Origin: Clostridia bacterium
GTDB lineage: Bacteria > Bacillota > Clostridia > UMGS1883
Assembly: GCA_045651805.1 (NCBI GenBank)
Contig: JAZRTB010000090.1
Coordinates: forward strand, 13,295 to 77,294
Length of the DNA stretch: 64,000 bases
Reading direction: 5' to 3'
Part shown: piece by piece, positions 1 to 44,826 of the stretch
Position numbering within the stretch: the stretch's first letter is position 1
Layout of the letters: every line of letters starts with the position of its first letter
Notes under the pieces: generated by a model
Databases searched by the model: none
The model's input: only the letters and a program-made list of their open reading frames with translations
Told to the model about the DNA's origin: nothing
Made by a program: the position numbers and the translations under genes

Positions 1-2928
1 CAATATACCTGATCTAAAGTCTATATTTGCATAAACGCCATTAGCTATTATAGAATCTTTAATAGTTAATTCTGTTCCTGTAACTGATACGGCTGAACGG
101 CAGCCCGAAATATAACAGTTTTCAATGGTTACTGTTCCCCACGCTCGTACCGCAGACACACCATAATTTGTATCATTTACATTCATAGCAACAGTCGTAA
201 ATTCTTTTCCGACAATACCTATATTTTTCAAGATTGCACCGTCGTAAAGGTGGAATACCGCACCATTCTTTTCGCTGATAGGTGCATTTTCCATTTTTAC
301 AGTAAAGCCATTGCCATATACCACACCACTTGCACTTAATGTACTTGATGTACTTACATCATTCAACAAAACTGTATTTCCACTAAAGGATGCTGTCGTT
401 GTGTTCTTCGCATCAACTACTTCAAGATACAACACCGTCGGTGCACAGTAATCGTAGTCCTGAATTGTAACCTTAACAACGCCTGTTCCGTCAAATTCAA
501 TAGTGCCCTTTGTCCAGTCGGTTGTGTTTGCAGTAAATGTACCGCTTACGGTTGAATTTTTATCAACTTTGTCAATAGTTGCAACAACACCTGAATTATT
601 AATGATTGCGCCATCTATTGCTTTAAACAATGTACCTAAAGTTACAGGACTTCCGCCTTTTTCTTCTTCTGTATCTCCATTACCAACACGATAGAGGAAA
701 TCGCCTGTGAATTTTGTTTCAAACTTCTCTACAGAATCTGCAACTTCTCTGTCAAGAATTGTTATTCCTTCAAAAGCGTAATCTTCTCCGTTATAAACGG
801 GGATATGCTTCACACCCCAACCATAACCTGTGAAAAGCTGATTGAAGGGCAGATAAACAATCTGATTATTTTCTTTAAGAACAGTCTTGCCGTCAACAGT
901 TTCCTCACCTGCATCGGTGTGGAGGTGCTGTTTCAATGTTCCGTCAGCATTTTTCACGATATGATAACAAGTCTTTGTATCGCCTGAAATCAAGAGGAAG
1001 TTCCCAATCTTTGTCCAAGTATCGCCGCTCTTGATTTCGTCAAGACTTGAAATCTGTGTCAATCTTGAGAACTGATGATCATGAGTATATGATGCGAGGG
1101 AGTTTGCTACGAGTTCACAATACCAATAACTATTCCAATCTCCGAAGTGAACTGTACACCCTTCAGCGTGGAATTTATCAGTTTCGGGAACTGTGTAGCC
1201 GTCCTTATCGGTAGTCATATTCTTATTAGTACCGACCATCATACCTGAATAGCGATACCAATAATACTGGTAGTTACCGCAGACATCGTTATATACATCA
1301 AGCTGTGCCGCAACGTGGCAGTTAGTCATATAAACATGCCCTGCACCGCGGAACATACCCACAAGACCGCCACAGGCAACGTCATAGCTACCCCAAAGAG
1401 CGGAGATTTTGTTAGTGTTATCAATAGTGATATTTGTGAATGTAAGCTTGTATGTATTAGGATCATCTGCATTACCGCCGATACCTACAACACCGCCGTT
1501 ACCTGTGTTATATACACGGGGATTACAGTTTGTGATAGCGATATTTTCAAATGTAGAATTTACGGCATACGCTGCGATAACACCGGTAGGTGCATATTCA
1601 CCGTCGGAGGAGAAATTGTCAACTGTAAGATTCTTTACAGTACCACCGTTCACATATCCGAAAAGACCCATTGCATCATTGTAGTAATTTCCGTCGTAAT
1701 CTCCCTTGATTTCCCAGGTATTCTGATAGAAATTAGCTATTTTATGTCCGTTACCGTTAAATGTACCTTCAAAGGATCGAACTGTACTTGACGGAGCAGA
1801 AGAATTACCATTGTAATAATAACCAATAGGATAGAAGATAAGACTTTCATTTGCGTTTTCTTTATCACCAAGGTTAATATCTGCGGCAAGCGTTACAGTT
1901 TTGCCGGCGAAGCTGTCTTGTGCCTGTCCATTCATACCACCAACGATAGCACCAAATGCCGCGAGCTGGTCCGCGTTTGCGATAACGTAATCAGTTGCTC
2001 CATCTTCTGCTATGGTTGTAATGTTATTATACCAACTATAATCGAAGTTACCTTCCCACGCATTTTCAGTATCTGCAACTACTGCCACCTCGCTGAAGGT
2101 TGCCATAGCAAGGGTAAGGGTGCCTGTAAGGGCATCGTAATGGAACTGATTATGTGTTGTAAGGTTTTCAATGCTGTCAACCTGTGTCATCAGTACATTT
2201 TTGCCGTTTTCGACATGGTAAAGTGCAAGGTTACCCTTGTTCATACCTTTCATAACGACATTTTCAATTTTTACGATTACCGGGACAGTATTTTCCTTTG
2301 AAATACCGTCTATATGAACATCCACAGGGATGATGATTTCGTTTTCATTTGCTTTGATACCGCTTCCGGTATTTTCAAGTTCTTTAACAGTCAGAACAAC
2401 ATTTGTAACACCGTCTTCAATTTTTGTTCCTGTTTTTACGATTGCACTTACAGAGTCCTGACTAAGGCTCACTTCACGGGTTGTAATATTGTTTTCAGCA
2501 GTTACGGTTGCACTTGCCGAAATATTAACCGACTTTCGGGTGATTTCGTTTTCATTGCCAAGCAAAGATACAAGACTGCCCATACTATCCACAGCAAAAA
2601 CCTTTACAGCATCAGTACCATTCACACCAATAACCTCTGTTGTATGCTCAACTTTCTGACCTTGGGTAAGTCCTGTTAATTTTTCCATAGAAGCATTCTG
2701 TAGTGTACCGTCAGAACCGTAACGGGCAGTAATCACCGTCGCTTCACTTCCCGGTGCAGTAAAATTCACCTTTGCAAATACGCTTTCTTCGTTTGTTATT
2801 TTTTCAATTTTCTCATTTGCAGAATTATAAAATTCTACAGTTCCCAATTCGGCAAACGCAACAAACTGCATTGTCGAAAAAAGCATCGTTATGCAAATCA
2901 ATAATGATAAAAATTTATTAAATCTCAT
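1..2928 (-). CDS. Giant secreted surface protein, right-handed beta-helix repeat type (partial; C-terminal part runs off the window)
   Basis: Absent from the ORF track because it is edge-truncated. My own minus-strand translation starts at ATG 2928, with AGGAGG 6 nt upstream. It gives the signal peptide MRFNKFLSLLICITMLFSTMQFVAFA. I read no stop in this frame down to base 1 (it ends ...YANIDFRSGIL). Repeated GxFGxVxGGTVKNLTV-type turns are present. The + strand ORFs at 503-2679 are antisense shadows. Confidence 0.8.
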   Translation of the reverse strand, partial: MRFNKFLSLLICITMLFSTMQFVAFAELGTVEFYNSANEKIEKITNEESVFAKVNFTAPGSEATVITARYGSDGTLQNASMEKLTGLTQGQKVEHTTEVIGVNGTDAVKVFAVDSMGSLVSLLGNENEITRKSVNISASATVTAENNITTREVSLSQDSVSAIVKTGTKIEDGVTNVVLTVKELENTGSGIKANENEIIIPVDVHIDGISKENTVPVIVKIENVVMKGMNKGNLALYHVENGKNVLMTQVDSIENLTTHNQFHYDALTGTLTLAMATFSEVAVVADTENAWEGNFDYSWYNNITTIAEDGATDYVIANADQLAAFGAIVGGMNGQAQDSFAGKTVTLAADINLGDKENANESLIFYPIGYYYNGNSSAPSSTVRSFEGTFNGNGHKIANFYQNTWEIKGDYDGNYYNDAMGLFGYVNGGTVKNLTVDNFSSDGEYAPTGVIAAYAVNSTFENIAITNCNPRVYNTGNGGVVGIGGNADDPNTYKLTFTNITIDNTNKISALWGSYDVACGGLVGMFRGAGHVYMTNCHVAAQLDVYNDVCGNYQYYWYRYSGMMVGTNKNMTTDKDGYTVPETDKFHAEGCTVHFGDWNSYWYCELVANSLASYTHDHQFSRLTQISSLDEIKSGDTWTKIGNFLLISGDTKTCYHIVKNADGTLKQHLHTDAGEETVDGKTVLKENNQIVYLPFNQLFTGYGWGVKHIPVYNGEDYAFEGITILDREVADSVEKFETKFTGDFLYRVGNGDTEEEKGGSPVTLGTLFKAIDGAIINNSGVVATIDKVDKNSTVSGTFTANTTDWTKGTIEFDGTGVVKVTIQDYDYCAPTVLYLEVVDAKNTTTASFSGNTVLLNDVSTSSTLSASGVVYGNGFTVKMENAPISEKNGAVFHLYDGAILKNIGIVGKEFTTVAMNVNDTNYGVSAVRAWGTVTIENCYISGCRSAVSVTGTELTIKDSIIANGVYANIDFRSGIL

Positions 2929-2930
2929 AC

Positions 2931-3182
2931 TCAGCCTCCTTGTCTGTTATTTCTTTTAAAAAACGCGACCAGTTTTTCAAAAGCTCCCTGTTTTTTATTT
3001 TCCGTATCTTCGGTGTCTTCAGTAATTACTACACCGTTTATCGGATCATAAAAAGCACAATTACACCCGTCATAACTGTCAAAGTACGGGCACACAGGGG
3101 AGTTTTCATCTATCAGATAGCTATTCTTTCCCGTCTTGCAGTCAGGACAAATTATTCTTTTGGGGTTCTTCTTTTTTTCCAT
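2931..3182 (-). CDS. Small Cys-rich protein (hypothetical)
   Basis: This is the 2931..3215 track ORF. I prefer the internal ATG at 3182 because AAGGTGGA lies 5 nt upstream. It has CPDC...CPY...CNC cysteines. Its stop sits 2 nt before the next gene's start, and that gene's RBS lies inside this ORF's 3' end. Confidence 0.5.
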   Translation of the reverse strand: MEKKKNPKRIICPDCKTGKNSYLIDENSPVCPYFDSYDGCNCAFYDPINGVVITEDTEDTENKKQGAFEKLVAFFKRNNRQGG

Positions 3183-3753
3183 CTGTTTCCACCTTGTTTT
3201 CGCTTTTAGGTTCAAGTGGGTTTACTTCAAGCCTTCCGGGCATTCTTGATATAAATTCTTTTTTCTCACGCCTTTTCTCATGTATCCATCTACGACCAAT
3301 GGGAGCAAGAAAAACAGAGATAAAAAGTATGATGTGGCATAAAATTATCGATACAATCGAAGAAATTCCAAAATTCGAAAATCCCAGAAAGTATGTCACC
3401 AGAAAAATCCACGAGTAGACTTTTCTTAAAGTTATGCTTGAAAGAATTATTCCCGCTGTTATATATGCAATGACACTTACTGTTGCATATATAGTTACAG
3501 AACACAGATTTGCAATAAAAAATGACTTTTCATTGCTCATTATCAAATAGCATTTTCTTAATCTGAAAAAATTTCTTATTATATAAATAAACGGGAGTGC
3601 TGTCAGTGCAAAACTTCGTTGCAAACTTCCCACCGGCATAGGGCCGGTTATACAAAGCAGACATATAAATGCCGACATTACAACAGAATCCAAAAACATT
3701 TCAATTGTTCGGTCTATTATTGCCTTTTTTACTTCTTTTGTCAATTTTTGCAT
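3142..3753 (-). CDS. Multi-pass membrane protein (hypothetical), first gene of the operon ending in the 1..2928 surface protein
   Basis: 203-aa ORF with several hydrophobic helices and a charged C-terminal tail. It is co-directional with the downstream genes and overlaps them. Confidence 0.6.
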   Translation of the reverse strand: MQKLTKEVKKAIIDRTIEMFLDSVVMSAFICLLCITGPMPVGSLQRSFALTALPFIYIIRNFFRLRKCYLIMSNEKSFFIANLCSVTIYATVSVIAYITAGIILSSITLRKVYSWIFLVTYFLGFSNFGISSIVSIILCHIILFISVFLAPIGRRWIHEKRREKKEFISRMPGRLEVNPLEPKSENKVETDGKKEEPQKNNLS

Positions 3754-3775
3754 TTTAAATTTCCTTTTTAAAGTA

Positions 3776-3807
3776 TTTGCACAAGGAGCTTTTGCCCCTT
3801 GTGCAAA
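3776..3807. other. Palindrome TTTGCACAAGG-N10-CCTTGTGCAAA (hairpin; terminator or operator)
   Basis: Perfect 11-bp arms lie 22 nt upstream of the 3753 start and downstream of the 3994..6915 unit. A T-run follows only on the + strand, so the role is ambiguous. Confidence 0.4.
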
Positions 3808-3845
3808 TTTTACTAATTAGTTTGAGATTTTTCATTCTACAAGAA

Positions 3846-3974
3846 TTAGCCCAGCGGCATTTCGTTTTCGTTATATTCGCCGTCTTCGCTTTCTCCGTTT
3901 CCACCAGCTGATGTCTGAATAACATCCACAAGTTCAAACTCGAGAATTTCAATCTCAGGTTTCATGTAATCCAT
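3846..3974 (-). CDS. Small acidic peptide, 42 aa (hypothetical; below the ORF-track size cutoff)
   Basis: My own translation is MDYMKPEIEILEFELVDVIQTSAGGNGESEDGEYNENEMPLG. AAAGGAGA lies 8 nt upstream of the ATG. The ORF begins 19 nt after the stop of the 973-aa surface protein. Confidence 0.35.
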   Translation of the reverse strand: MDYMKPEIEILEFELVDVIQTSAGGNGESEDGEYNENEMPLG

Positions 3975-3993
3975 GATATATTCTCCTTTCTAA

Positions 3994-6915
3994 TTAGTGC
4001 AAATAGTTATATGCCGAAGTTGTAAACTTCGCTATTGCAGTATATACATCTCCTTTTTCGATGTTTCTCTTCAAGTATCCGTTTATACTATCTATAAGAG
4101 TACTATATACTGTTCCGTCTGCATTGTAGACAGTTATTGTTACAAGCTGTGCTGCATCTGCAACAACAAGGTTATCAACACACACACCATATGTTGTACT
4201 ATTAAACTTATAAAAATCTTTACCGTCTACTTCAAGCGTTTTTTTATGTCCATAATGATCTGTAAATGATGCTACCGCATACATATCAGAAGTGAGATTT
4301 TTGAAATAACCGGTAAGCTTAATATTGTTTTCCAATGTTACTGTTGTTCCTACATACTTACTGTCTGAAACTTTTTCATTTTTAAGATGACTTACATCTG
4401 CAGTTGCATACTTCTGATATTTTTCAGCATTGGCATTAGCAGGTTTTTCAGTATTATAGTTAAAATACGCTTGTGTTGCAGCACCATAATTAAGCATATC
4501 TACAAGAGCAGTTCTTAACTCGCTATTAGTTGTTGTTTCTATTGTACGATAAGCATATGCACTCAAACCATCAACCTTAGTATTACTTACTTGTGTTCCG
4601 TCTGTCTTGTAGATTGTTACATGGATTTCATCAGCAATCTGTTTAGCTGCAAGATTTGAATAATTCATCACATAGTAATCCACACCAGAAAGCTTTCTTG
4701 CTTCCCACTCTGCAAACTCATATCTTTTTTCATTGATTTTTCCATCAGGTAAATAATGCTCTACAACTGCGTAATAATCTTTTCCTTCGAAATATTCTTG
4801 TTTTGCAAAGAAACTAATCTGCATAGAATTTCCAAGAGTTACTGTTGCACCACTAAAATCAAACAACTTTGCAACTTCAAAATCTTTTGCTACATAATTA
4901 TAATCTGTAACTTTATAAACATTTGTATTGTTTACAATAGCTTCTGCTGCTGCCTTCTCACCTTTTGAATTATCTACCACAGCAAGCTCAAGATTTACTG
5001 TAAGGTTGGGGTTAGCTGCAAGAATTTCGGGAGTGAGATACAATGCACACTTGAAATCTTTAACGCCGCTGCAAATGTAGTCATATTTCTGACCAAGACC
5101 TACTCCGAGCATTACGGGATAACGAACACCTTTTTCGATTTTCATACCGTCAACAGGAACCTTAACCCAACCAAAATCACCATAGTAACCTGCAAGATAA
5201 CATCCGTCAGCAACGAAGCTATCGTTTTCAAGGCCATCAAATGTAAGCACAAAATCTGCATACCAGTCTGCATAGGGACTTGTCTTCATATCTTCAGCAT
5301 TCTGATCCGCAACAAACTGCATTACAAAGCTGAGGGGGAGTTCTTTATCGCCCTTTGAAGTATAGTTTTTACCATCCCATATGCCATATCCTCCCGCAGG
5401 AAGAGTCTGTGCGCCAAGGTTATTAACCGTTGCTGTAGGAGCCTTGCCGATCACTTCATTACCGTTAAGGTCAGGGATTTTTGCATAACCAAGGTCTTCC
5501 ATATCGTATGTATACCCATCAACCTTTTCAAATTCTGCATTAACTGCCTTTTCTTTAGTTTCAGCAAGACCGAGGTCAAGATTTACATTGATTCCGGGAT
5601 TTGCCGCGATTACTTCAGGAGTGAAGTATATACCACACACAAATTCTCCTACTGAACTGCAAATATCAACATAGCTATAGTCAAAGCCTACACTTGTAAT
5701 TACAGGATATGTCTTATCTTTTTCAACAGTAAAACCATCAAGAGGGATCTTAACCCAAATACCATAAGAGGGGTAATAACCTGCAAGATAACATCCATTA
5801 CCTACAAAATTATTTGAAAGTCCGTCAATCTTAATGAAGAAGTCTGTTGTGTACTCTGCATATGCATTAGCCTCTGCCTCTGCTTTGCTATCCTTTGCCA
5901 CGAACTTCATCGCAACATCAAGGTCAAACGACTCTTTAGATGATCCTTTTAATTTTCCGGTAGTAAGATCATATACATAATATGAATCTCCGAAATTCAA
6001 ATCACCGTTGCCATTTTTGTCCGTAACTGTAATTGCACCAAGATTTGACACTTCCGCTTCGGGGAGAACCTTGGGAGCAGGAGTCCAGATTCCTTCCTGT
6101 ACATTCATATTGCTTGACTCAATATCAACAAAGTTCATATTGCTGCCTGCATTAGGAGTAAGAGTGTTTCCAGTTGCAGTTACAACAACAGTCTTAGAAT
6201 CGGTGTATGAAGTGATTTTTACATACTGACCATTCATAATATTGTTTGTAAATGTAATCTCGCCTGCCGCACTTACATTTACTTCAGCGTCTGTAATTTT
6301 GTTTCCTGTTATAACAACAGATTTTGCATCACCTTTTCCACCTTCGTTATCAGAGATTGCTCTTCTCCAACCGATAAATTCAGAATCAGTAACTTTTACC
6401 GCTACATCACTGAGTGCATCACCTGCACCTTCACCGAAGATGATTGCTCTTGTATTATTTGCATAGCCGTTACCGATAAATTTACATTTTTCAACAGTCA
6501 GATTCTTCTTTGATGAAATTGCACGGAATCTACCGCTGAACTCTGATTGTGCTTTTGTCATATCAATGGTAAGATTCTTAACAGTTGCATTGTCTTCAAA
6601 TCTGAATACTGAATAATAGTTATAACCATCATTAACAACATTTGTAACTGTTATTTTATGACCATTACCGTCGATTGTTACGGGATTTTTTATTTTACCA
6701 CCGGTGTTTCTTGAATCCCATTTGTAATCAATTGTTACATCAGAAAGAAGTGTAAGGGTGTCACCGGCTTTAAGCGCCTTAAGCGCTGCTTCAAGTGTTG
6801 CATAAAAAGTATCACCAATCTTTGCAACTGCTGTTTCTTCTGCCATTGCTGTAATTCCTACGCTAAGGAGCATTGAGATTGCAACAAGCAGTGATAAAAT
6901 TTTGTTGATTTTCAT
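3994..6915 (-). CDS. Secreted surface protein with an N-terminal beta-helix region and a tandemly duplicated ~155-aa domain
   Basis: 973-aa ORF with signal peptide MKINKILSLLVAISMLLSVGITAMA. The AKIGDTFYATLEAALKA... opening is typical of beta-helix proteins. An internal duplication spans aa ~287-452 and ~495-647 (CYLAGYY...W[VI]K[IV]P[LV]DG...YLTPE[IV][IL]AANP). Confidence 0.85.
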   Translation of the reverse strand: MKINKILSLLVAISMLLSVGITAMAEETAVAKIGDTFYATLEAALKALKAGDTLTLLSDVTIDYKWDSRNTGGKIKNPVTIDGNGHKITVTNVVNDGYNYYSVFRFEDNATVKNLTIDMTKAQSEFSGRFRAISSKKNLTVEKCKFIGNGYANNTRAIIFGEGAGDALSDVAVKVTDSEFIGWRRAISDNEGGKGDAKSVVITGNKITDAEVNVSAAGEITFTNNIMNGQYVKITSYTDSKTVVVTATGNTLTPNAGSNMNFVDIESSNMNVQEGIWTPAPKVLPEAEVSNLGAITVTDKNGNGDLNFGDSYYVYDLTTGKLKGSSKESFDLDVAMKFVAKDSKAEAEANAYAEYTTDFFIKIDGLSNNFVGNGCYLAGYYPSYGIWVKIPLDGFTVEKDKTYPVITSVGFDYSYVDICSSVGEFVCGIYFTPEVIAANPGINVNLDLGLAETKEKAVNAEFEKVDGYTYDMEDLGYAKIPDLNGNEVIGKAPTATVNNLGAQTLPAGGYGIWDGKNYTSKGDKELPLSFVMQFVADQNAEDMKTSPYADWYADFVLTFDGLENDSFVADGCYLAGYYGDFGWVKVPVDGMKIEKGVRYPVMLGVGLGQKYDYICSGVKDFKCALYLTPEILAANPNLTVNLELAVVDNSKGEKAAAEAIVNNTNVYKVTDYNYVAKDFEVAKLFDFSGATVTLGNSMQISFFAKQEYFEGKDYYAVVEHYLPDGKINEKRYEFAEWEARKLSGVDYYVMNYSNLAAKQIADEIHVTIYKTDGTQVSNTKVDGLSAYAYRTIETTTNSELRTALVDMLNYGAATQAYFNYNTEKPANANAEKYQKYATADVSHLKNEKVSDSKYVGTTVTLENNIKLTGYFKNLTSDMYAVASFTDHYGHKKTLEVDGKDFYKFNSTTYGVCVDNLVVADAAQLVTITVYNADGTVYSTLIDSINGYLKRNIEKGDVYTAIAKFTTSAYNYLH

Positions 6916-7200
6916 CTTTTATATCTTCCTTTCCTAAAGATGTCTGGGGTTAACCGACCCCTTCGGGCAGAAATTGTCTTTTTAGCAGCTGATTCTGCAC
7001 GTACGCTGCTTTGCCGTTACAGGCATATCTATGTAAAACCCTTTCGGGGACTGTAGTTTAAAGACGCGGTTTTATTATTCCCGAATTTATTGTCACAAAT
7101 AATGCTTGAATCATGTGGTATGTAGAAAGCATTTTCCTAAGATGTCTGCATAATACAACGCACGTCTTTTATGAAAAACAGAAATCTGTTTTCATCACAG

Positions 7201-7461
7201 TTAATATTTCTTTGCTTTAAATTTCATTCTGCTTGCAAAAAAACCTCCCACAAGCGGAATGAGACTTACATATAGCCGTTTTTTCTCGTATTGCCAGTAT
7301 TGCCTTTTTTCATAAGAATCACTGAATAAAATCTTTCTGTATATTCTGTCATAAGCATCAACAAACGGAAAATAAACAGCTACAATAAACTTCATCATCA
7401 GCAGTACAAAAATTGCAATTATCACCAGTGCCGCTGCTATCCAAAAAAAGCCATTCTCCAT
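7201..7461 (-). CDS. Small membrane protein (hypothetical), co-transcribed with the TetR-family gene
   Basis: The track ORF is 7201..7503. Three in-frame starts exist (GTG 7503, ATG 7479, ATG 7461) because of an 18-bp tandem duplication. ATG 7461 follows GGTGGAG. There is one clear TM helix (FFWIAAALVIIAIFVLLMM). Confidence 0.55.
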   Translation of the reverse strand: MENGFFWIAAALVIIAIFVLLMMKFIVAVYFPFVDAYDRIYRKILFSDSYEKRQYWQYEKKRLYVSLIPLVGGFFASRMKFKAKKY

Positions 7462-7499
7462 ATTTGTCAACTCCACCATGTTTGTCAACTCCACCCTTT

Positions 7500-8048
7500 T
7501 CACATTACTTCCAACACATTGTGTAAAAACTTCATCTGCATTTCAGATGCTTCTCTGTCTTCCCAGATAACATAGTCAACCACTACTGAAATCAAGGTAT
7601 AAATGATTGGTGCTACTTTTTCAGGAGTGGAATCTATTATTTTCGCCAATTGAACAATGTTTTCGCCATATCCTTCCTTGAAGTCTTCGGCTTTGACTCT
7701 GATAGCATTTCCGTATTCCGGACTTGCCGCAAACTGAAACACAAGTCTTAATTCCTGTTTATATTGATCAATCTCGTCAAGAAACTCATTAAAAAACACA
7801 TCAGGCGTTTTCATTTTTTCAAAAACAAAATCAAAGATTCTTCCAACAACCTTTGTAATGCCATACTTCACAACACTTATGTAAATATCATCTTTTCCTT
7901 CAAACCAGTAATAAATGCTTCCGTATGAAATATTCATAGCTTTACACAAATCTCTTACAGAAGTATTTTCAAGACCGTTATTCACCAGATATTTAAAAGA
8001 CGGTTCCAGAAATTCTTTTTCTATATCCTTCACTATCTGTTCACGCAT
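7500..8048 (-). CDS. TetR/AcrR-family transcriptional regulator
   Basis: 182 aa. The N-terminal HTH (NTSVRDLCKAMNISYGSIYYWF) is typical of the TetR family. RBS GAAAGAGGTG. Confidence 0.85.
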   Translation of the reverse strand: MREQIVKDIEKEFLEPSFKYLVNNGLENTSVRDLCKAMNISYGSIYYWFEGKDDIYISVVKYGITKVVGRIFDFVFEKMKTPDVFFNEFLDEIDQYKQELRLVFQFAASPEYGNAIRVKAEDFKEGYGENIVQLAKIIDSTPEKVAPIIYTLISVVVDYVIWEDREASEMQMKFLHNVLEVM

Positions 8049-8120
8049 ATTTATTACGCACCTCTTTCACACGCAATATTTTCTCGAACACTTGCTATAA
8101 AATCGACTAAAAAAAATTTC

Positions 8121-8148
8121 TTACCACATAATCGAAATTATGTGGTAA
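8121..8148. repeat. Recombinase core-type site, left copy (TTACCACATAAT-CGAA-ATTATGTGGTAA)
   Basis: It has 12-bp inverted arms around an asymmetric 4-nt centre. The 26 bp at 8123-8148 are the exact reverse complement of 8382-8407. Confidence 0.8.
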
Positions 8149-8180
8149 AAAACAGTTTAACGCTATCTAAATGCTGGCTA

Positions 8181-8209
8181 ATTGTATCATCGAAGACGTT
8201 GTTTGTCAA
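8181..8209 (-). promoter_or_regulatory. Sigma-A-type promoter TTGACA-17-TACAAT inside inverton 1, currently firing toward the TetR operon
   Basis: The reverse complement of 8181-8209 is TTGACAaacaacgtcttcgatgaTACAAT, with an exact 17-nt spacer. Confidence 0.7.
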
Positions 8210-8268
8210 TAGTCTACATACAAAAAAATAGTATTTTAGGCAGAATGACAAAAAAATATATAGACAAA

Positions 8269-8303
8269 CAGACCAATGTTGTTGAAAATTTACCATTGGT
8301 CTG
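8269..8303 (-). terminator. Hairpin with T-rich tail inside inverton 1 (insulator between recombinase read-through and the promoter)
   Basis: 10-bp stem CAGACCAATG/CATTGGTCTG with a 15-nt loop. On the minus strand it is followed by TTTGTCTATATATTTTTTTG. Confidence 0.45.
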
Positions 8304-8381
8304 CTTGTGATGCGTTTTTTTCTTGAGTTGTGACAGTTTATAATGTAATTTAAACAGGATCACTCAACTATTCAATTTTTC

Positions 8382-8407
8382 TTACCACATAATTTCGATT
8401 ATGTGGT
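8382..8407. repeat. Recombinase core-type site, right copy (TTACCACATAAT-TTCG-ATTATGTGGT)
   Basis: It is inverted relative to 8121-8148, and its centre TTCG is the reverse complement of CGAA. It sits 11 bp from the recombinase stop. Confidence 0.8.
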
Positions 8408-8418
8408 TTTTTTGTTTT

Positions 8419-9258
8419 TCAGCAACATAAAAGTCCAAGTTTTTGAATTTGTGCTCTGTGAATTTCTCCCGATTCCATAGTGTAAATTCTTGTTGTATTT
8501 ATACTTGAATGTCCAAGTATATCTGCAAGCCTCACAATATCTTTTTGCATAGCGTAATAAGTTCTTGCAAAAAGGTGTCTGAGATTATGCGGAAAAACTT
8601 TTCTTTTATCAACCCCTGCTTCCTCACATAATTTTTTCATTTCATGAAAAACATTACTTCTGTCAAGAGGAGTTCCGCTCTTGGTAACAAAAATGCTTCC
8701 GCTTGAAATTTTTCTTTCCTTTATATATTGTGTTAATATTTTACAAAGCCTTTCAGGTAAAATAATAATACGCATTTTCCCCTTCAGGTTTATTCGAGCT
8801 TCCCGCTTTACAACTGCATCTACAGTTATAAACTTAAGCTCCGATATACGAATCCCCGTAGAACAGACTGTTTGCATCAGAAAATACAAACGTCTGTTAT
8901 TTTTATTTTTTGCAGTTTCGAGAAGCCTTATATACTCTTTTTTCGAAAGCTCTCTTTCTTTTCTTGCGAAAATTTGCTTTTGAATTTTCAACATTTTCGT
9001 TTTAAGATTATGTCTTCCCTTAAATGAAAAATAACTGTTCAAGGACGAAAGCACGGCGTTCACCCCGGAAGGAGAGTGCTTTTCTTCTAATTCCTTTTTG
9101 TAAATCAATACCAGCGATTTTGTCAGTTTTCGCTCTCCGCACCATTTCAGAAAAACTTCAATATCCCTGACATATTTGTCTACTGTTGCTGCTGACTTTT
9201 CTTCATCAAGAAGATACTGCTTGTAATTGTAAAGTTTGTTTTCAATAGTCCTATTCAA
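8419..9258 (-). CDS. Tyrosine site-specific recombinase (phage-integrase/Xer-like family), 279 aa
   Basis: TTG start. Catalytic motifs are STGIRISEL (Arg), HNLRHLFAR (H-x-x-R) and LGHSSINTTRIYT (His...Tyr). About 70% identical by eye to the 43902..44741 recombinase. Confidence 0.9.
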   Translation of the reverse strand: MNRTIENKLYNYKQYLLDEEKSAATVDKYVRDIEVFLKWCGERKLTKSLVLIYKKELEEKHSPSGVNAVLSSLNSYFSFKGRHNLKTKMLKIQKQIFARKERELSKKEYIRLLETAKNKNNRRLYFLMQTVCSTGIRISELKFITVDAVVKREARINLKGKMRIIILPERLCKILTQYIKERKISSGSIFVTKSGTPLDRSNVFHEMKKLCEEAGVDKRKVFPHNLRHLFARTYYAMQKDIVRLADILGHSSINTTRIYTMESGEIHRAQIQKLGLLCC

Positions 9259-9373
9259 TAATTCTCAACTCCTCGCTATTATTTTATCACCTATTTTCTT
9301 TTTTACCATATCTTGTTCTATTTTTTTGCCTGTCCTCATACTTATAAAACAGGTTTAAGTAAGGAGGAATCTT

Positions 9374-10699
9374 ATGCAGGCAGAAATTACAAAACGTGGG
9401 AACGGATTTATCATCACTCCGCAATACATAGACAGTTATTCTAAAAAGCTACCGCAAATTGCAGCAGATACAAAACCTTTAAGTTTAAACACAGTCAAAG
9501 AAGCTCTTTCAACAAGCACTCTGGCCTGCACCGCATATGCAAAAGCATCAGGAAAAAAGCTTTTTTTCAAAGTACTTTCCACGGCAGTTGCCTTTTGTTG
9601 CATATTGGTATTTTTTTGTTGTTTTTCTTTTTCAACGGGAATTTATTGCAACGGTGAAAAAATAGCTGCGGGACATAGTAAGGAGGAGTTTCTCTCCGCT
9701 TTAAAAAAAGCGCAGGCAACCGCTTTAAAATATGGAATTTCTGACCTGAAACTTAATTTTTCAACATCCCCGGTATTAAGCCTGAAAAGTGATATCTTAT
9801 CCGCAAATGCACTTCACGACAAAATTCTTGCATCATCGGGGCACTTTGTTATGGGATACGCCCTGTACTCGGACGGAGCTCTTGTTTTCAACACCGCGAC
9901 CCGTGAAACTGCACAGGAAGTTCTCAATGAATACATATCGTCCTGCTCTATGAACGGAAATGCAACCCTGTCATCAAAGGTAGAATGTAAACCTGCCCTT
10001 ATTTTTAAATCCAATCTTTCAGACAAAAAAGAGTGCCTTGCCATTCTTCAGGAAAACAAAAGCATAAATGTTGTCAGCGTAGTAAACTCCACATCGTCAA
10101 AGGTTATCCCTTTTGAAGTACAGCAGGAGCACGATTCTGCCCTTTATGTCGGAGAATCAGTTACCGTGGTCGAGGGTGTCAACGGTAATGCACAGGTATC
10201 TCTTGAAACCGTTTACGAAAATGGTACAGAGCAGTCAAGCCACGTCACATCTGAAAAAATAATTGCAAATCCTGTGGCTTCTGTAGTACGGGTAGGTACA
10301 AAATACAAAAAAGTCCTTGAAAGCGGTCTTAATTACCCTCTCAAGGGGGTTCTTTCTTCCCCTTTCGGGTCACGTTGGGGTTCTGTTCACGAGGGAATTG
10401 ACATTGCCGTAGCAGAAGGTACTCAAGTCAAAGCCGCTGAATGCGGAACAGTAAGCTATGTCAGCGAAAACGCAGGCGGTTACGGCAAGCTCGTCCGTAT
10501 CAACCACGGTTATGGGGTGGAAACCGCTTATGCTCATCTCAGTCAGATAAATGTTTCCGTAGGTCAGAATGTTTCAAAGGATACAGTTATCGCTTTAAGC
10601 GGAAATACAGGAAGGTCAACAGGTCCCCATCTCCATTTTGAAATACTGGAAAACGGCAATCCTGTTGACCCTCTGAAGCATCTCCCTAAAGCTTCTTGA
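9374..10699 (+). CDS. M23-family metallopeptidase with membrane anchor and G5-like domain
   Basis: C-terminal motifs HEGIDIA ... GYG..V.I.H ... GPHLHFE. RBS AAGGAGG. Confidence 0.85.
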   Translation: MQAEITKRGNGFIITPQYIDSYSKKLPQIAADTKPLSLNTVKEALSTSTLACTAYAKASGKKLFFKVLSTAVAFCCILVFFCCFSFSTGIYCNGEKIAAGHSKEEFLSALKKAQATALKYGISDLKLNFSTSPVLSLKSDILSANALHDKILASSGHFVMGYALYSDGALVFNTATRETAQEVLNEYISSCSMNGNATLSSKVECKPALIFKSNLSDKKECLAILQENKSINVVSVVNSTSSKVIPFEVQQEHDSALYVGESVTVVEGVNGNAQVSLETVYENGTEQSSHVTSEKIIANPVASVVRVGTKYKKVLESGLNYPLKGVLSSPFGSRWGSVHEGIDIAVAEGTQVKAAECGTVSYVSENAGGYGKLVRINHGYGVETAYAHLSQINVSVGQNVSKDTVIALSGNTGRSTGPHLHFEILENGNPVDPLKHLPKAS

Positions 10700-43763: not shown

Positions 43764-43795
43764 TTTACCACATAATTTGCATTATGTGGTAGAGA
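43764..43795. repeat. Recombinase core-type site A (TTTACCACATAAT-TTGC-ATTATGTGGTAGAGA)
   Basis: 32 bp, the exact reverse complement of 44795-44826. It lies in the 5' leader of paralogue L. Confidence 0.85.
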
Positions 43796-43822
43796 CAAGT
43801 CCACCTATAATTACACATGAAT

Positions 43823-43851
43823 AGTATAACTCTGTTTTCTAAATTTGTCAA
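43823..43851 (-). promoter_or_regulatory. Sigma-A-type promoter TTGACA-17-TATACT inside inverton 2, currently firing into paralogue L
   Basis: The reverse complement reads TTGACAaatttagaaaacagagtTATACT. Its -10 box lies ~30 bp from site A. Confidence 0.7.
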
Positions 43852-43901
43852 TACAAAAAGGGAAATATTTTTTACAAAAATGTTAAATTGCGGAACTTTT
43901 T

Positions 43902-44741
43902 TCAGCATTGCAGAAGTCCCAGCATCTGAAGCTGTTTTCGGTGCTCCGCACCTGATTCAATAGTATATATTCTTGTTGTGTTTATGCTTGTGTGTCCAAG
44001 CAAATCAGCAAGACGCACAATATCTTTTTGCAGCGAATAAAAAGTCCTTGCAAAAAGATGCCTGAAATTATGCGGAAAAACCTTTTTCTTTGATACCCCC
44101 GCATTTTCGCACAAAGTTTTGAGCATTTTCCAAATATTTGACCTGTCAAGGGGATTCCCGCTTTTTGTTACAAAAACACTGCCTTTTACAAGTTTTTCTT
44201 CCTTTATATATTGTACAAGCATTTTGCACAACTGTTCGGGAAGAATGACAACGCGCATTTTTCCTTTGCATCGTATTATTGCCTGCCGTGCTTTTACTGC
44301 CCCTACTGTAATATATTTAAGTTCAGATACTCTAATACCTGTTGAACAAATTGTCTGCATCAAAAGCCATAATTTTTTATTTCCGCTTTCAAGAGCTGCT
44401 GAAAGAAGTTTGTTATATTCTTCTTTTGTCAGTTCTTTTTCTTTGTCGGAAAAGATTTGTTTTTGTATTTTCAGCGTTTTAACCCGACAATCATTCCACC
44501 CCATAAATTCTAAAAAACAGTTAATTGATGAAATCATAGAATTAACGCTTCGGGGAGCATAGTTTTGCGAAATATGATTTTTGTAATCAACAACAGTTTC
44601 TTTTGTAACTTTTCTTTTTTTCAACCATTCAAAAAAAGAAAGAACATCTCTTGAGTATTTTTCAATAGTAACAGTTGATTTTTCCTCCGCGTAAAGATAA
44701 CTGCGAAAATTTGTAATCAATTGTAAAGTTATTTCCGGCAT
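43902..44741 (-). CDS. Tyrosine site-specific recombinase, 279 aa, encoded inside the invertible cassette
   Basis: STGIRVSEL, HNFRHLFAR and LGHTSINTTRIYT motifs. The start is trimmed to ATG 44741 (MPEITLQL; GAGAGGAA RBS), giving the same 279-aa length as the 8419..9258 paralogue. The 316-aa track ORF would read through site B. Confidence 0.9.
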   Translation of the reverse strand: MPEITLQLITNFRSYLYAEEKSTVTIEKYSRDVLSFFEWLKKRKVTKETVVDYKNHISQNYAPRSVNSMISSINCFLEFMGWNDCRVKTLKIQKQIFSDKEKELTKEEYNKLLSAALESGNKKLWLLMQTICSTGIRVSELKYITVGAVKARQAIIRCKGKMRVVILPEQLCKMLVQYIKEEKLVKGSVFVTKSGNPLDRSNIWKMLKTLCENAGVSKKKVFPHNFRHLFARTFYSLQKDIVRLADLLGHTSINTTRIYTIESGAEHRKQLQMLGLLQC

Positions 44742-44794
44742 AGAACACATTCCTCTCGTTTTCTTTTTATTATAACCCAAACCATCTGACAAAT

Positions 44795-44826
44795 TCTCTA
44801 CCACATAATGCAAATTATGTGGTAAA
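44795..44826. repeat. Recombinase core-type site B (inverted copy of site A; centre GCAA)
   Basis: TCTCTACCACATAATGCAAATTATGTGGTAAA, in the 5' leader of paralogue R. Confidence 0.85.

What the first reader, a model, noticed from the sequence alone, without database searches (positions are those of the whole stretch)
8109..8420. Second inverton with the same site arms: a 233-bp promoter-bearing segment between a paralogous recombinase and a TetR-family regulator operon
Seen directly: TTACCACATAAT-CGAA-ATTATGTGGTAA (8121-8148) and TTACCACATAAT-TTCG-ATTATGTGGT (8382-8407) are inverted copies, 26 bp identical with reverse-complementary centres. The right copy lies 11 bp from the stop of a 279-aa tyrosine recombinase that is ~70% identical to the one at 43902-44741. 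The bracketed segment has no credible ORF. It does contain an exact TTGACA-17-TACAAT promoter (8209 to 8181, minus strand) that now points at the TetR-family gene (7500-8048) and a small membrane-protein gene. Upstream of the promoter is a hairpin with a T-rich tail (8303 to 8269) that could insulate it from recombinase read-through. Inference: this is a phase-variable (ON/OFF) promoter for a transcriptional regulator, that is, a potential regulon-level phase switch sitting next to a 973-aa surface-protein gene. In the flipped state the promoter would face the 3' end of the recombinase gene (antisense) and would meet the hairpin plus U7GU5 at the right site.
Basis: partly seen in the sequence, partly recalled or inferred. 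Interest (0 to 1): 0.75.

Follow-up and report, generated by a model that had tools for sequence, protein, structure and literature searches.

The report
Invertible promoter switch before TetR operon
A 233-bp promoter-carrying DNA segment, bracketed by two lox/dif-like sites beside its own Xer-type recombinase, is a real flip-flop switch: close relatives carry it in the opposite orientation, and it belongs to a large, little-described family of such switches in gut Clostridia.

Summary
Two sites (8121-8148 and 8382-8407) have identical palindromic arms and reverse-complementary 4-nt centres. They bracket 233 bp that carry a near-consensus extended -10 promoter and a terminator-like hairpin, 11 bp from the stop of a Xer-like tyrosine recombinase.

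The strongest evidence is comparative. In syntenic loci from other metagenomes (recombinase 81-88% identical), the flanks are collinear but the inner segment is exactly inverted, with breakpoints at the sites.

A metagenome scan found at least 120 loci with the same arms. Every inverted pair has reverse-complementary centres, and at least 43 different centres occur. In all 78 loci with an adjacent recombinase gene, its 3' end faces the switch. The inner segment repeatedly contains a hairpin terminator followed by a promoter that fires outward.

A TetR gene heading an operon with a small membrane protein and large secreted proteins is the commonest target. The TetR therefore looks like part of a surface-protein module, and a role as a global regulator is untested.

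One caveat was missed. The target-side site plus U8 forms a terminator-like hairpin between the promoter and the TetR gene, in both orientations.

Verdict: a real switch and a new member of a known kind, probably the "group 139" Clostridia invertons. The two recombinases are 59% identical, not 70%.

The parts
8121..8148 (.). Target-side (distal) recombination site: 12-nt palindromic arms around the asymmetric centre CGAA. Read as 11-6-11 it is TTACCACATAA-TCGAAA-TTATGTGGTAA.
   Evidence: The inner arm ends CATAA/TTATG match the core of dif sites (my own knowledge of the E. coli dif sequence).
8382..8409 (.). Recombinase-proximal recombination site. It has the same arms as site A, and its centre TTCG is the reverse complement of the site A centre.
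   Evidence: It lies 11 bp from the recombinase stop codon.
8149..8381 (.). Invertible segment of 233 bp between the sites (start-to-start spacing 261 bp).
   Evidence: It is inverted relative to the flanks in L007, L008 and L133. BLAST gives plus/plus for 8123-8407 but plus/minus for both flanks. Identity is 64% as found and 86% after flipping in silico. The inner segment is 90% identical when reversed.
8181..8209 (-). Sigma-70-type promoter TTGACA-17-TACAAT with a TG extended -10. It fires outward through site A towards the TetR gene in this orientation.
   Evidence: 11 of 12, the best in the region. The hexamers are conserved in L007 and L133 while the spacer varies. An equivalent promoter lies 24-46 nt from the segment end in 15 diverse family members.
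8264..8308 (.). Internal hairpin flanked by an A-run and a T-run: a bidirectional terminator-like insulator upstream of the promoter.
   Evidence: (I14). It is conserved in the family, and 7 of 9 predicted pairs show compensatory changes.
8109..8153 (-). Site A read as RNA on the minus strand: a 17-bp hairpin followed by U8. This terminator-like element lies between the promoter and the TetR gene.
   Evidence: terminator scan; -20.3 kcal/mol, z = -5.6. The T-run is conserved in the closest relatives L007, L032, L059 and L022 but not in the wider family.
8384..8420 (+). Site B read as RNA on the plus strand: a 10-bp hairpin followed by U7GU5. It would stop transcripts running antisense into the recombinase gene when the promoter is flipped.
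   Evidence: An A-run on the outer flank of the recombinase-proximal site is present in most of 68 non-redundant family loci.
8419..9258 (-). Xer-like tyrosine recombinase of 279 aa, the presumed invertase.
   Evidence: Pfam Phage_integrase 5.7e-29 plus the SAM-like N-terminal domain. It scores below the NCBIfam cut-offs for XerA, XerC and XerD. The closest solved structures are XerA 5HXY and 4A8E and XerD 1A0P; the HxxR and GH...Y motifs are aligned.
7500..8048 (-). TetR-family regulator of 182 aa, the first gene downstream of the switch.
   Evidence: Pfam TetR_N 29.3 bits against a cut-off of 24. Homologues occupy the same position in L007, L008, L032, L022, L048, L070, L079, L096, L099 and L065.
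7201..7503 (-). Small single-pass membrane protein. Its start overlaps the TetR stop codon by 4 nt.
   Evidence: Counterparts occur in L007, L048, L096 and L134.
3994..6915 (-). 973-aa secreted protein with a signal peptide. It is the probable structural cargo of the operon.
   Evidence: It has no Pfam family. Large secreted proteins follow the TetR gene in L007, L048, L065, L079, L096 and L099.
43765..43792 (.). Sister site of the second locus: same arms, different centre (TTGC).
44798..44825 (.). Sister site of the second locus (centre GCAA). Together with 43765-43792 it brackets the paralogous recombinase gene.

Best explanation
This is a site-specific invertible promoter (an inverton).

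Inferred mechanism: the adjacent Xer-like tyrosine recombinase binds as a homo-tetramer to two dif/lox-like core sites. Each site has palindromic 11-12-nt arms and an asymmetric central region. The recombinase exchanges strands within the central regions. Because the two centres are reverse complements, the outcome is inversion of the 233-bp segment.

The segment is a compact cassette: an A-run, hairpin and T-run terminator, followed about 60 nt later by a strong extended -10 promoter that fires outward about 30 nt from the segment end.

In the orientation found in the window (ON), the promoter reads through site A into an operon of a TetR gene, a small membrane protein gene and, probably, the 973-aa secreted protein gene. 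The internal terminator shields the operon from read-through out of the recombinase gene.

In the flipped orientation (OFF, as seen in relatives), the promoter faces the 3' end of the recombinase gene, and its transcripts meet the site B hairpin plus U-run. Read-through from the recombinase gene is then stopped by the internal terminator and again by the site A hairpin plus U8.

The different central sequence at the second locus of the window (TTGC/GCAA against CGAA/TTCG) should keep the two switches from recombining with each other.

Shown here: the anatomy, the inversion between relatives, and the conservation of the design across the family. Inferred: which recombinase acts, where it cleaves, and the transcriptional consequences.
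For: Site anatomy and excess over chance.

Exact inversion between orthologous loci with conserved flanks: window against L007 and L008; L133. A second family locus also occurs in both orientations, with the inner half-arms travelling with the segment (L040 against L120 and L084).

Family census: at least 120 metagenome loci carry the same arms. Every inverted pair has reverse-complementary centres, spaced 169-379 bp apart, with at least 43 non-palindromic centre classes.

In 78 of 78 loci with an adjacent recombinase homologue, the 3' end of the gene faces the proximal site.

A promoter scoring at least 10 of 12 points towards the recombinase in 36 loci and away from it in 14.

The terminator-promoter cassette is conserved, and the hairpin shows compensatory changes.

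A conserved A-run lies outside the proximal site.

The recombinase has an intact tyrosine-recombinase fold and motifs and is closest to XerA, XerD and XerH.

Three independent ortholog contigs end inside or at the sites. This is what assemblers do when a sample holds both orientations.

A published survey found flipping in culture for a Clostridia inverton group of matching dimensions that is linked to a tyrosine recombinase (PMC11892184).
Against: No read-level data from one population were available, so flipping within this strain is inferred from differences between strains and metagenomes.

Most same-locus comparisons in the family show the same orientation (96 pairs against 4).

Between the promoter and the TetR gene lies a 16-17-bp hairpin followed by U8. 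It forms in either orientation (and inspection of the flanks). If it terminates efficiently, the ON state would be weak, or would need antitermination.

No transcription data exist. A weak promoter downstream of 8121 cannot be excluded: the scan found none, but a conserved leader box of unknown role exists.
Confidence: 0.85

Rival explanations
1. The segment does invert, but it does not switch the TetR operon ON and OFF through its promoter. The site A hairpin plus U8 would terminate essentially all transcripts from the invertible promoter. TetR would then be expressed from an unrecognised promoter in 8049-8120. The inversion would serve another purpose, for example antisense or orientational control of the recombinase gene, as with fimE.
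For: The site A hairpin has 17 bp plus U8 and folds at -20.3 kcal/mol. It forms in both orientations, and it is conserved in the closest relatives. A leader box, TTATAGCAAGTGTTC, is conserved downstream of it.
Against: No promoter-like site was found on the minus strand between 8049 and 8120. In most family members the distal site has no T-run, and the outward promoter is the only evident driver of the downstream genes. The conserved U-run after the recombinase-proximal site argues that antisense transcription into the recombinase gene is prevented, not exploited. L059 has the same T-run, and there the next gene encodes a secreted protein about 300 nt downstream.
Confidence: 0.12
2. The two palindromes are not recombination sites. 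They would be ordinary hairpin terminators or repetitive palindromic elements, and the recombinase next door would be an unrelated integrase of a genomic island.
For: Both sites score as terminator-like. The whole cassette is absent from related genomes L129 and L130, so it behaves as an accessory island.
Against: The inner segment is precisely inverted between orthologues, with breakpoints at the sites. More than 40 independent pairs always have reverse-complementary centres. A recombinase homologue sits in a fixed position and orientation in 78 of 78 loci. In L040 against L120, the mismatches in the inner half-arms move with the segment.
Confidence: 0.02
3. The switch is terminator-based, like C. 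difficile cwpV. A fixed promoter would lie outside the segment, and inversion would create or destroy a terminator.
For: There are strong hairpins inside the segment and at its edges.
Against: The near-consensus promoter lies inside the segment and is conserved at a fixed distance from its end across the family. The internal hairpin has an A-run on one side and a T-run on the other, so it is bidirectional. The site A hairpin plus U8 forms in both orientations.
Confidence: 0.03

Closest known systems
E. coli fimS switch (FimB/FimE tyrosine recombinases)
   Same: A short invertible segment (314 bp in fimS, 233-261 bp here) carries a sigma-70 promoter. The tyrosine recombinase gene lies immediately upstream and is co-directional with the target operon. 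In the OFF state the promoter faces the recombinase gene.
   Different: fimS has 9-bp inverted repeats with flanking half-sites and needs IHF and Lrp. Here the sites are full lox/dif-like palindromes with an asymmetric centre, a single recombinase gene is adjacent, and a terminator is built into the segment. The statements about fimS rest on my own knowledge.
Clostridioides difficile RecV switches (cmrRST, flgB, cwpV)
   Same: These are tyrosine-recombinase-driven inversions in Clostridia. cmrRST is a precedent for phase variation of a regulatory system (bioRxiv 10.1101/690230 / PMC6837544, listed). cwpV links inversion to a surface protein (PMC2784873).
   Different: In C. difficile one distant recombinase, RecV, serves many switches with dissimilar imperfect repeats, and cwpV works through an orientation-dependent terminator. 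Here each switch has its own adjacent recombinase, the arms are shared, and the centres are locus-specific. The promoter lies inside the segment.
Clostridia 'inverton group 139' / 'invertase group 35' of the hCom2 survey (PMC11892184)
   Same: That group holds 33 invertons, 32 of them in Clostridia, across 17 strains. Nearly all have an adjacent tyrosine recombinase. The example coordinates give 26-nt repeats spaced 231 bp apart. Flipping was observed over culture passages.
   Different: The repeat motif of group 139 is shown only in figures that I could not read, so identity with this family is probable but unverified. That paper does not describe the site anatomy, the variable centres, the terminator-promoter cassette or TetR-headed targets, to judge from a text search that found 0 occurrences of 'TetR'.
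Cre/loxP and FLP/FRT inversion, including heterospecific lox spacer variants
   Same: Palindromic arms flank an asymmetric central region that sets directionality, so inverted sites give inversion. Sites with different central sequences do not recombine with each other. This is the logic proposed for the CGAA and TTGC loci in this window.
   Different: lox and FRT are 13-8-13, whereas these sites are 11-6-11 (or 12-4-12). The natural roles of Cre and FLP are plasmid or phage maintenance, not gene switching. These statements rest on my own knowledge.
Xer/dif single-recombinase systems (XerA, XerH/difH, XerS)
   Same: The recombinase is closest in sequence to XerA, XerD and XerH. The site has the 11-6-11 layout, and its inner arm ends CATAA/TTATG match dif.
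   Different: dif is a single site per replicon used to resolve chromosome dimers. Here there are four sites in 64 kb, arranged as inverted pairs around promoters. The NCBIfam scores are far below the Xer equivalog cut-offs.
Bacteroides capsular-polysaccharide promoter invertons with UpxY/UpxZ
   Same: An invertible promoter drives a surface-structure operon whose first genes encode regulators.
   Different: The phylum, the recombinase (the serine recombinase Mpi), the repeats and the regulator family all differ. Any cross-locus role for the TetR here is speculation. These statements rest on my own knowledge.

Membership tests
Promoter inverton (site-specific invertible promoter) | Two recombination sites in inverted orientation flank a short intergenic segment. 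| tested here: met
   the arms are identical, the centres are reverse complements, and the chance expectation is 0.61 matches against 7 observed.
Promoter inverton (site-specific invertible promoter) | A site-specific recombinase gene is associated with the sites. | tested here: met
   The tyrosine recombinase gene ends 11 bp from site B. The same arrangement holds in 78 of 78 family loci.
Promoter inverton (site-specific invertible promoter) | A promoter lies inside the segment and faces a gene in one orientation only. | tested here: met
   An 11-of-12 extended -10 promoter points at the TetR gene. It is conserved in position across the family.
Promoter inverton (site-specific invertible promoter) | Both orientations occur in nature. 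| tested here: met
   The window is opposite to L007, L008 and L133. This compares related populations, not reads within one clone.
Promoter inverton (site-specific invertible promoter) | Expression of the downstream genes depends on orientation. | not testable with these tools
   This needs RNA-seq or reporters in orientation-locked clones. The terminator-like site A hairpin makes it a real open question.
Xer/dif chromosome-dimer resolution system | The recombinase reaches the XerC, XerD or XerA equivalog score. | tested here: not met
   Scores against cut-offs: XerA 134.6 against 220, XerD 122.8 against 329.6, XerC 111.1 against 335.
Xer/dif chromosome-dimer resolution system | There is a single dif site per replicon. 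| tested here: not met
   Four sites lie within 64 kb, as two inverted pairs.
Xer/dif chromosome-dimer resolution system | The site has an 11-6-11 layout with CATAA/TTATG inner arm ends. | tested here: met
   TTACCACATAA-TCGAAA-TTATGTGGTAA. The comparison with dif rests on my own knowledge.
Clostridia inverton group 139 (PMC11892184) | Repeat length of about 26 nt, span of about 230-260 bp, an adjacent tyrosine recombinase, and a Clostridia host. | tested here: met
   The dimensions come from the example coordinates quoted. The relatives found here are Clostridia or Eubacteriales genomes assembled from metagenomes, and human gut contigs.
Clostridia inverton group 139 (PMC11892184) | The repeat sequence motif of the group. 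| not testable with these tools
   The motif is given only as figures. The strings ACCACATAAT and ATTATGTGGT are absent from the held supplements and occur only in unrelated papers.
cwpV-type terminator switch | The promoter lies outside the segment, and a terminator forms in one orientation only. | tested here: not met
   The promoter lies inside the segment. The site A hairpin plus U8 forms with either inner flank, and the internal hairpin is bidirectional.
TetR family of transcriptional regulators | An N-terminal TetR-type helix-turn-helix domain. | tested here: met
   PF00440 scores 29.3 bits against a cut-off of 24, E = 7.5e-07, at residues 23-57. No named NCBIfam equivalog is reached.

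The most novel reading that the evidence does not exclude
The locus would be one copy of a portable, self-contained switch cassette derived from Xer/dif. The cassette consists of the recombinase gene, a dif-like site, a terminator, a promoter and a second dif-like site. Its 4-nt central 'barcodes' would make many copies mutually orthogonal within a genome.

A dedicated TetR subfamily encoded as the first gene of the switched operons would act in trans on the other variable surface-protein loci, for example locus 2 of this window. That would impose a hierarchy or mutual exclusion, analogous to UpxZ in Bacteroides.

The hairpin plus U8 at the target-side site would be a conditional attenuator that adds a third, 'primed' state.
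Probability: 0.15. Interest if true: 0.7.

Novelty: new member of a known kind. Interest (0 to 1): 0.5.

Why it matters
Phase variation in gut Clostridia is far less understood than in Bacteroides or E. coli.

This locus gives a clean, sequence-defined example with all parts identifiable: the recombinase, lox/dif-like sites, a built-in terminator and a consensus promoter.

It anchors a family of at least 120 metagenomic loci that share the same arms but carry locus-specific centres.

That makes three things directly testable:
1. How many independent switches coexist in one genome without cross-talk.
2. What a TetR regulator does at the head of phase-variable surface-protein operons.
3. Whether these compact cassettes could serve as orthogonal genetic switches for engineering Clostridia.

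For genome annotation, the family explains contig breaks and apparent strain differences at these loci.

Tried and rejected
Exact-sequence look-ups of the window's TetR and recombinase, and of P0001, found no encoding contig. The orthologues were reached through P0002-P0006 instead.

The genome-collection scan with the recombinase returned only 6 loci, none orthologous.

The literature search for the arm sequence returned only unrelated papers. A further search for Clostridia invertons was swamped because 'dif' matches words such as 'different'.

Rfam found no RNA family in 6700-9500, so there is no c-di-GMP riboswitch of the kind found next to the C. difficile switches.

The conserved leader box TTATAGCAAGTGTTC was tested as a possible TetR operator repeated elsewhere. 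It has no other credible copy in the window.

I considered whether outward-read site loops are selected to be stable tetraloops, since locus 1 gives UUCG and locus 2 gives GCAA. I rejected the idea: by my tally of the spacer classes listed, only about 3 of 33 centre classes in the family give UNCG or GNRA loops.

The isolated half-site-like matches at 7110 and 49723 are within chance expectation.

I looked for a second promoter between site A and the TetR gene. None was found by the scan or by eye.

The cwpV-like orientation-dependent terminator model was examined and rejected (see the rival explanations).
Full report
**1. Observation**

- Site A, 8121-8148: TTACCACATAAT-CGAA-ATTATGTGGTAA.
- Site B, 8382-8407: TTACCACATAAT-TTCG-ATTATGTGGT.

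Both were read directly. The repeat finder reports them as a 30-nt inverted repeat, 97% complementary, with 225 nt between the arms. Each site is itself a palindrome apart from its 4-nt centre, and the two centres are reverse complements.

The 12-nt arm with up to 1 mismatch occurs 7 times in the window against 0.61 expected, and 0 of 100 shuffles reach 7. All 7 copies lie in four sites: the two above, plus 43765-43792 (centre TTGC) and 44798-44825 (centre GCAA).

- The promoter TTGACA-17-TACAAT with a TG extended -10, on the minus strand at 8209->8181, is the best match in 6800-9500.
- The internal hairpin at 8264-8308 folds at -22.3 kcal/mol on the minus strand and -17.4 kcal/mol on the plus strand.
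- The recombinase ORF is 8419-9258 on the minus strand. The TetR ORF is 7500-8048, a 100-aa membrane protein ORF is 7201-7503, and a 973-aa secreted protein ORF is 3994-6915, all on the minus strand.

Two corrections are needed. The paralogous recombinases are 59% identical, not about 70%. It folds at -20.3 kcal/mol and lies between the promoter and the TetR gene.

**2. Proteins**

The 279-aa protein has the Phage_integrase catalytic domain (5.7e-29) and a SAM-like N-terminal domain. It resembles XerA, XerD and XerC but scores far below their curated cut-offs. Its closest solved structures are XerA (5HXY, 4A8E), XerD (1A0P) and XerH (5JJV), and the HxxR and GH...Y motifs are aligned.

The 182-aa protein passes the Pfam TetR_N threshold (29.3 bits against 24) but reaches no named equivalog. 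The 973-aa protein has a signal peptide and no Pfam family.

Read as 11-6-11, the site is TTACCACATAA-TCGAAA-TTATGTGGTAA. It shares the CATAA/TTATG inner arm ends of dif (my own knowledge). The system therefore looks like a Xer/dif derivative used for inversion.

**3. Direct evidence of inversion at this locus**

P0002 is a recombinase 88% identical to the window's. It led to two metagenome contigs, L007 and L008, with the same gene order: groEL, groES, an ORF, the M23 peptidase gene, the recombinase gene, a gap, the TetR gene, the small membrane protein gene and a large secreted protein gene.

The intergenic region aligns collinearly in both flanks and both sites, but the inner segment does not. 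After flipping 8133-8397 in silico, identity rises from 64% to 86%.

BLAST shows the same thing. Window 8123-8407 matches L007 plus/plus at 92%, while both flanks match plus/minus. The inner segment is 90% identical when reversed and 54% when not.

L133 (recombinase 81% identical) also carries the flipped orientation. So the window has the promoter facing the TetR gene (ON), and three relatives have it facing the recombinase gene (OFF).

The promoter hexamers and the TG are conserved in these relatives, while the promoter spacer has diverged.

Three ortholog contigs end at the switch:
- L131 ends inside the proximal site centre.
- L132 ends at the last base of the proximal site.
- L133 ends at the edge of the distal site.

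This is the pattern expected when a sample holds both orientations. It is suggestive, not proof.

**4. The family**

- Every locus with two exact sites in inverted configuration has reverse-complementary centres, spaced 169-379 bp apart. At least 43 centre classes occur, and none is palindromic.
- Allowing up to 3 mismatches finds the partner site for most single-site loci.
- In all 78 loci with an adjacent recombinase homologue (43-88% identical), the 3' end of the gene faces the proximal site at a distance of 2-170 bp.
- Among loci with a promoter scoring at least 10 of 12 in the inner segment, 36 point at the recombinase and 14 point away. These counts are not de-replicated.
- A second locus occurs in both orientations with 100% identity when reversed (L040 against L120). 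There the mismatches in the inner half-arms travel with the segment, as expected for crossover in the centre.

Fifteen diverse members align into one design:
- an A-run;
- a hairpin (AGACCAAT...ATTGGTCT);
- a T-run;
- about 60 nt further on, ATTGACA-N14-TGnTATAAT, ending 24-46 nt from the segment end.

Seven of the 9 predicted hairpin pairs show compensatory changes. The outer flank of the recombinase-proximal site is an A-run in most of 68 non-redundant loci. On the opposite strand the site is therefore a hairpin followed by a U-run, placed to stop transcripts that leave a flipped promoter towards the recombinase gene.

**5. Targets**

Of 44 first downstream genes, 10 have a TetR_N domain, making it the commonest family. 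Four of these loci were added deliberately, so the unbiased count is about 6 of 40. The rest are mostly secreted or surface proteins (DUF7601, Flg_new, fn3, PA14, SpaA, collagen, VWA), with a few signalling proteins.

In the TetR-headed loci, the TetR gene is followed by a small membrane protein and one to three large secreted proteins. The TetR therefore looks like a component of a phase-variable surface-protein module. A role as a global regulator is possible but untested.

**6. The unresolved point**

In the window and its closest relatives (L007, L032, L059, L022), the target-side site is followed by T7-T8. With either inner flank, the RNA can form a 16-17-bp stem directly followed by the U-run. 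The ON-state transcript must therefore read through a terminator-like element.

My preferred reading is that this element is leaky, and that together with the internal terminator it makes the OFF state tight. The alternative, that the promoter does not drive TetR at all, gets about 12%.

No promoter was found downstream of the site. A conserved leader box exists, has no other copy in the window, and has no assigned function. Rfam finds no RNA family here.

**7. Relation to what is known**

Functionally this is a fimS-type promoter inverton with Cre/lox-like site logic and a Xer-like enzyme.

Phase variation of regulators by inversion has a precedent in C. difficile cmrRST, and terminator-based switching has one in cwpV (papers listed). 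The cwpV model does not fit here.

A survey of a defined gut community reported a Clostridia-wide 'inverton group 139'. It holds 33 invertons in 17 strains, with 26-nt repeats spaced 231 bp apart, linked to a tyrosine 'invertase group 35', and it flips during passaging (PMC11892184). The dimensions and host range fit this family, but I could not read its motif. The arm sequence occurs in no relevant held paper or supplement.

I therefore rate the locus a new member of a known kind. The family-level anatomy appears not to have been written down: dif-like palindromic sites with locus-specific centres, the built-in terminator-promoter cassette, and TetR-headed targets.

**8. Scores**

| Claim | Confidence |
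|---|---|
| The locus is a genuine invertible promoter switch | 0.85 |
| It gates the TetR operon | about 0.7 |
| It is a regulon-level switch | about 0.15-0.2 |

Interest is 0.5. The finding is solid and well-formed, and it opens a sizeable family, but it is conceptually within known phase-variation mechanisms.

Noticed in passing
L134:3088-3200 (Logan SRR14307643): This is a natural deletion variant of the same locus. It has one hybrid site: the proximal outer flank, a TTCG centre and the distal outer flank. The invertible segment and the TetR gene are missing, and the small membrane protein gene follows directly. Because each site is palindromic, the two sites are also direct repeats of each other (D1). 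That could allow such a deletion.
   Followed up: partly
L131, L132, L133 (contig ends): Three independent contigs carrying orthologous recombinases end inside or exactly at the recombination sites. This is consistent with assembly breaks caused by mixed orientations in the sample.
   Followed up: partly
window 1-9300; L129:6542-6687; L130:4150-4445: Two genomes whose GroEL falls in the same 90% cluster lack the whole cassette (recombinase, switch, TetR, secreted proteins). In them the M23 peptidase gene directly follows an AMP-binding enzyme gene. The switch therefore travels with its cargo as an accessory island. The AMP-binding gene is not in the window.
   Followed up: partly
window 43765-44825: At the second locus the paralogous recombinase gene lies inside the 1-kb invertible segment. 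A promoter, TTGACA-17-TATACT (43851->43823, minus strand), now faces the 1136-aa secreted protein gene. After a flip it would face the 823-aa gene at 44912. That would make a two-way toggle, not an ON/OFF switch.
   Followed up: partly
window 8133-8136 / 8394-8397 against 43777-43780 / 44810-44813: The two loci share identical arms but differ in the centre: CGAA/TTCG against TTGC/GCAA. As 6-nt centres these are TCGAAA and TGCAAA. This heterology should prevent recombination between the loci, which would otherwise invert about 35 kb. Across the family at least 43 centre classes exist and none is palindromic.
   Followed up: partly
L096, L080, L083, L100, L115: Some family loci carry three sites. 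In L096, for example, two direct TCTG sites lie 43 bp apart alongside one inverted partner. This could give more than two states, or could be the scar of a duplication.
   Followed up: no
window 8086-8100 (minus strand); L007, L032 leaders: A conserved box, TTATAGCAAGTGTTC, lies between the target-side site and the TetR start codon in the window and L007, and with two substitutions (TTATAGCAACCGTTC) in L032. It could be an operator or a leader element. It has no second copy in the window.
   Followed up: partly
window 6916-7010 (minus strand): The roughly 95-nt leader directly upstream of the 973-aa gene is about 80% identical to the corresponding region of L007, although the coding sequence downstream is not alignable at the DNA level. 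It has no Rfam match.
   Followed up: no
window 1-2946 (minus strand): Another large secreted protein of at least 982 aa, with the signal peptide MRFNKFLSLLICITMLFSTMQFVA, runs off the left end of the window. The region is a cluster of variable secreted-protein genes.
   Followed up: no
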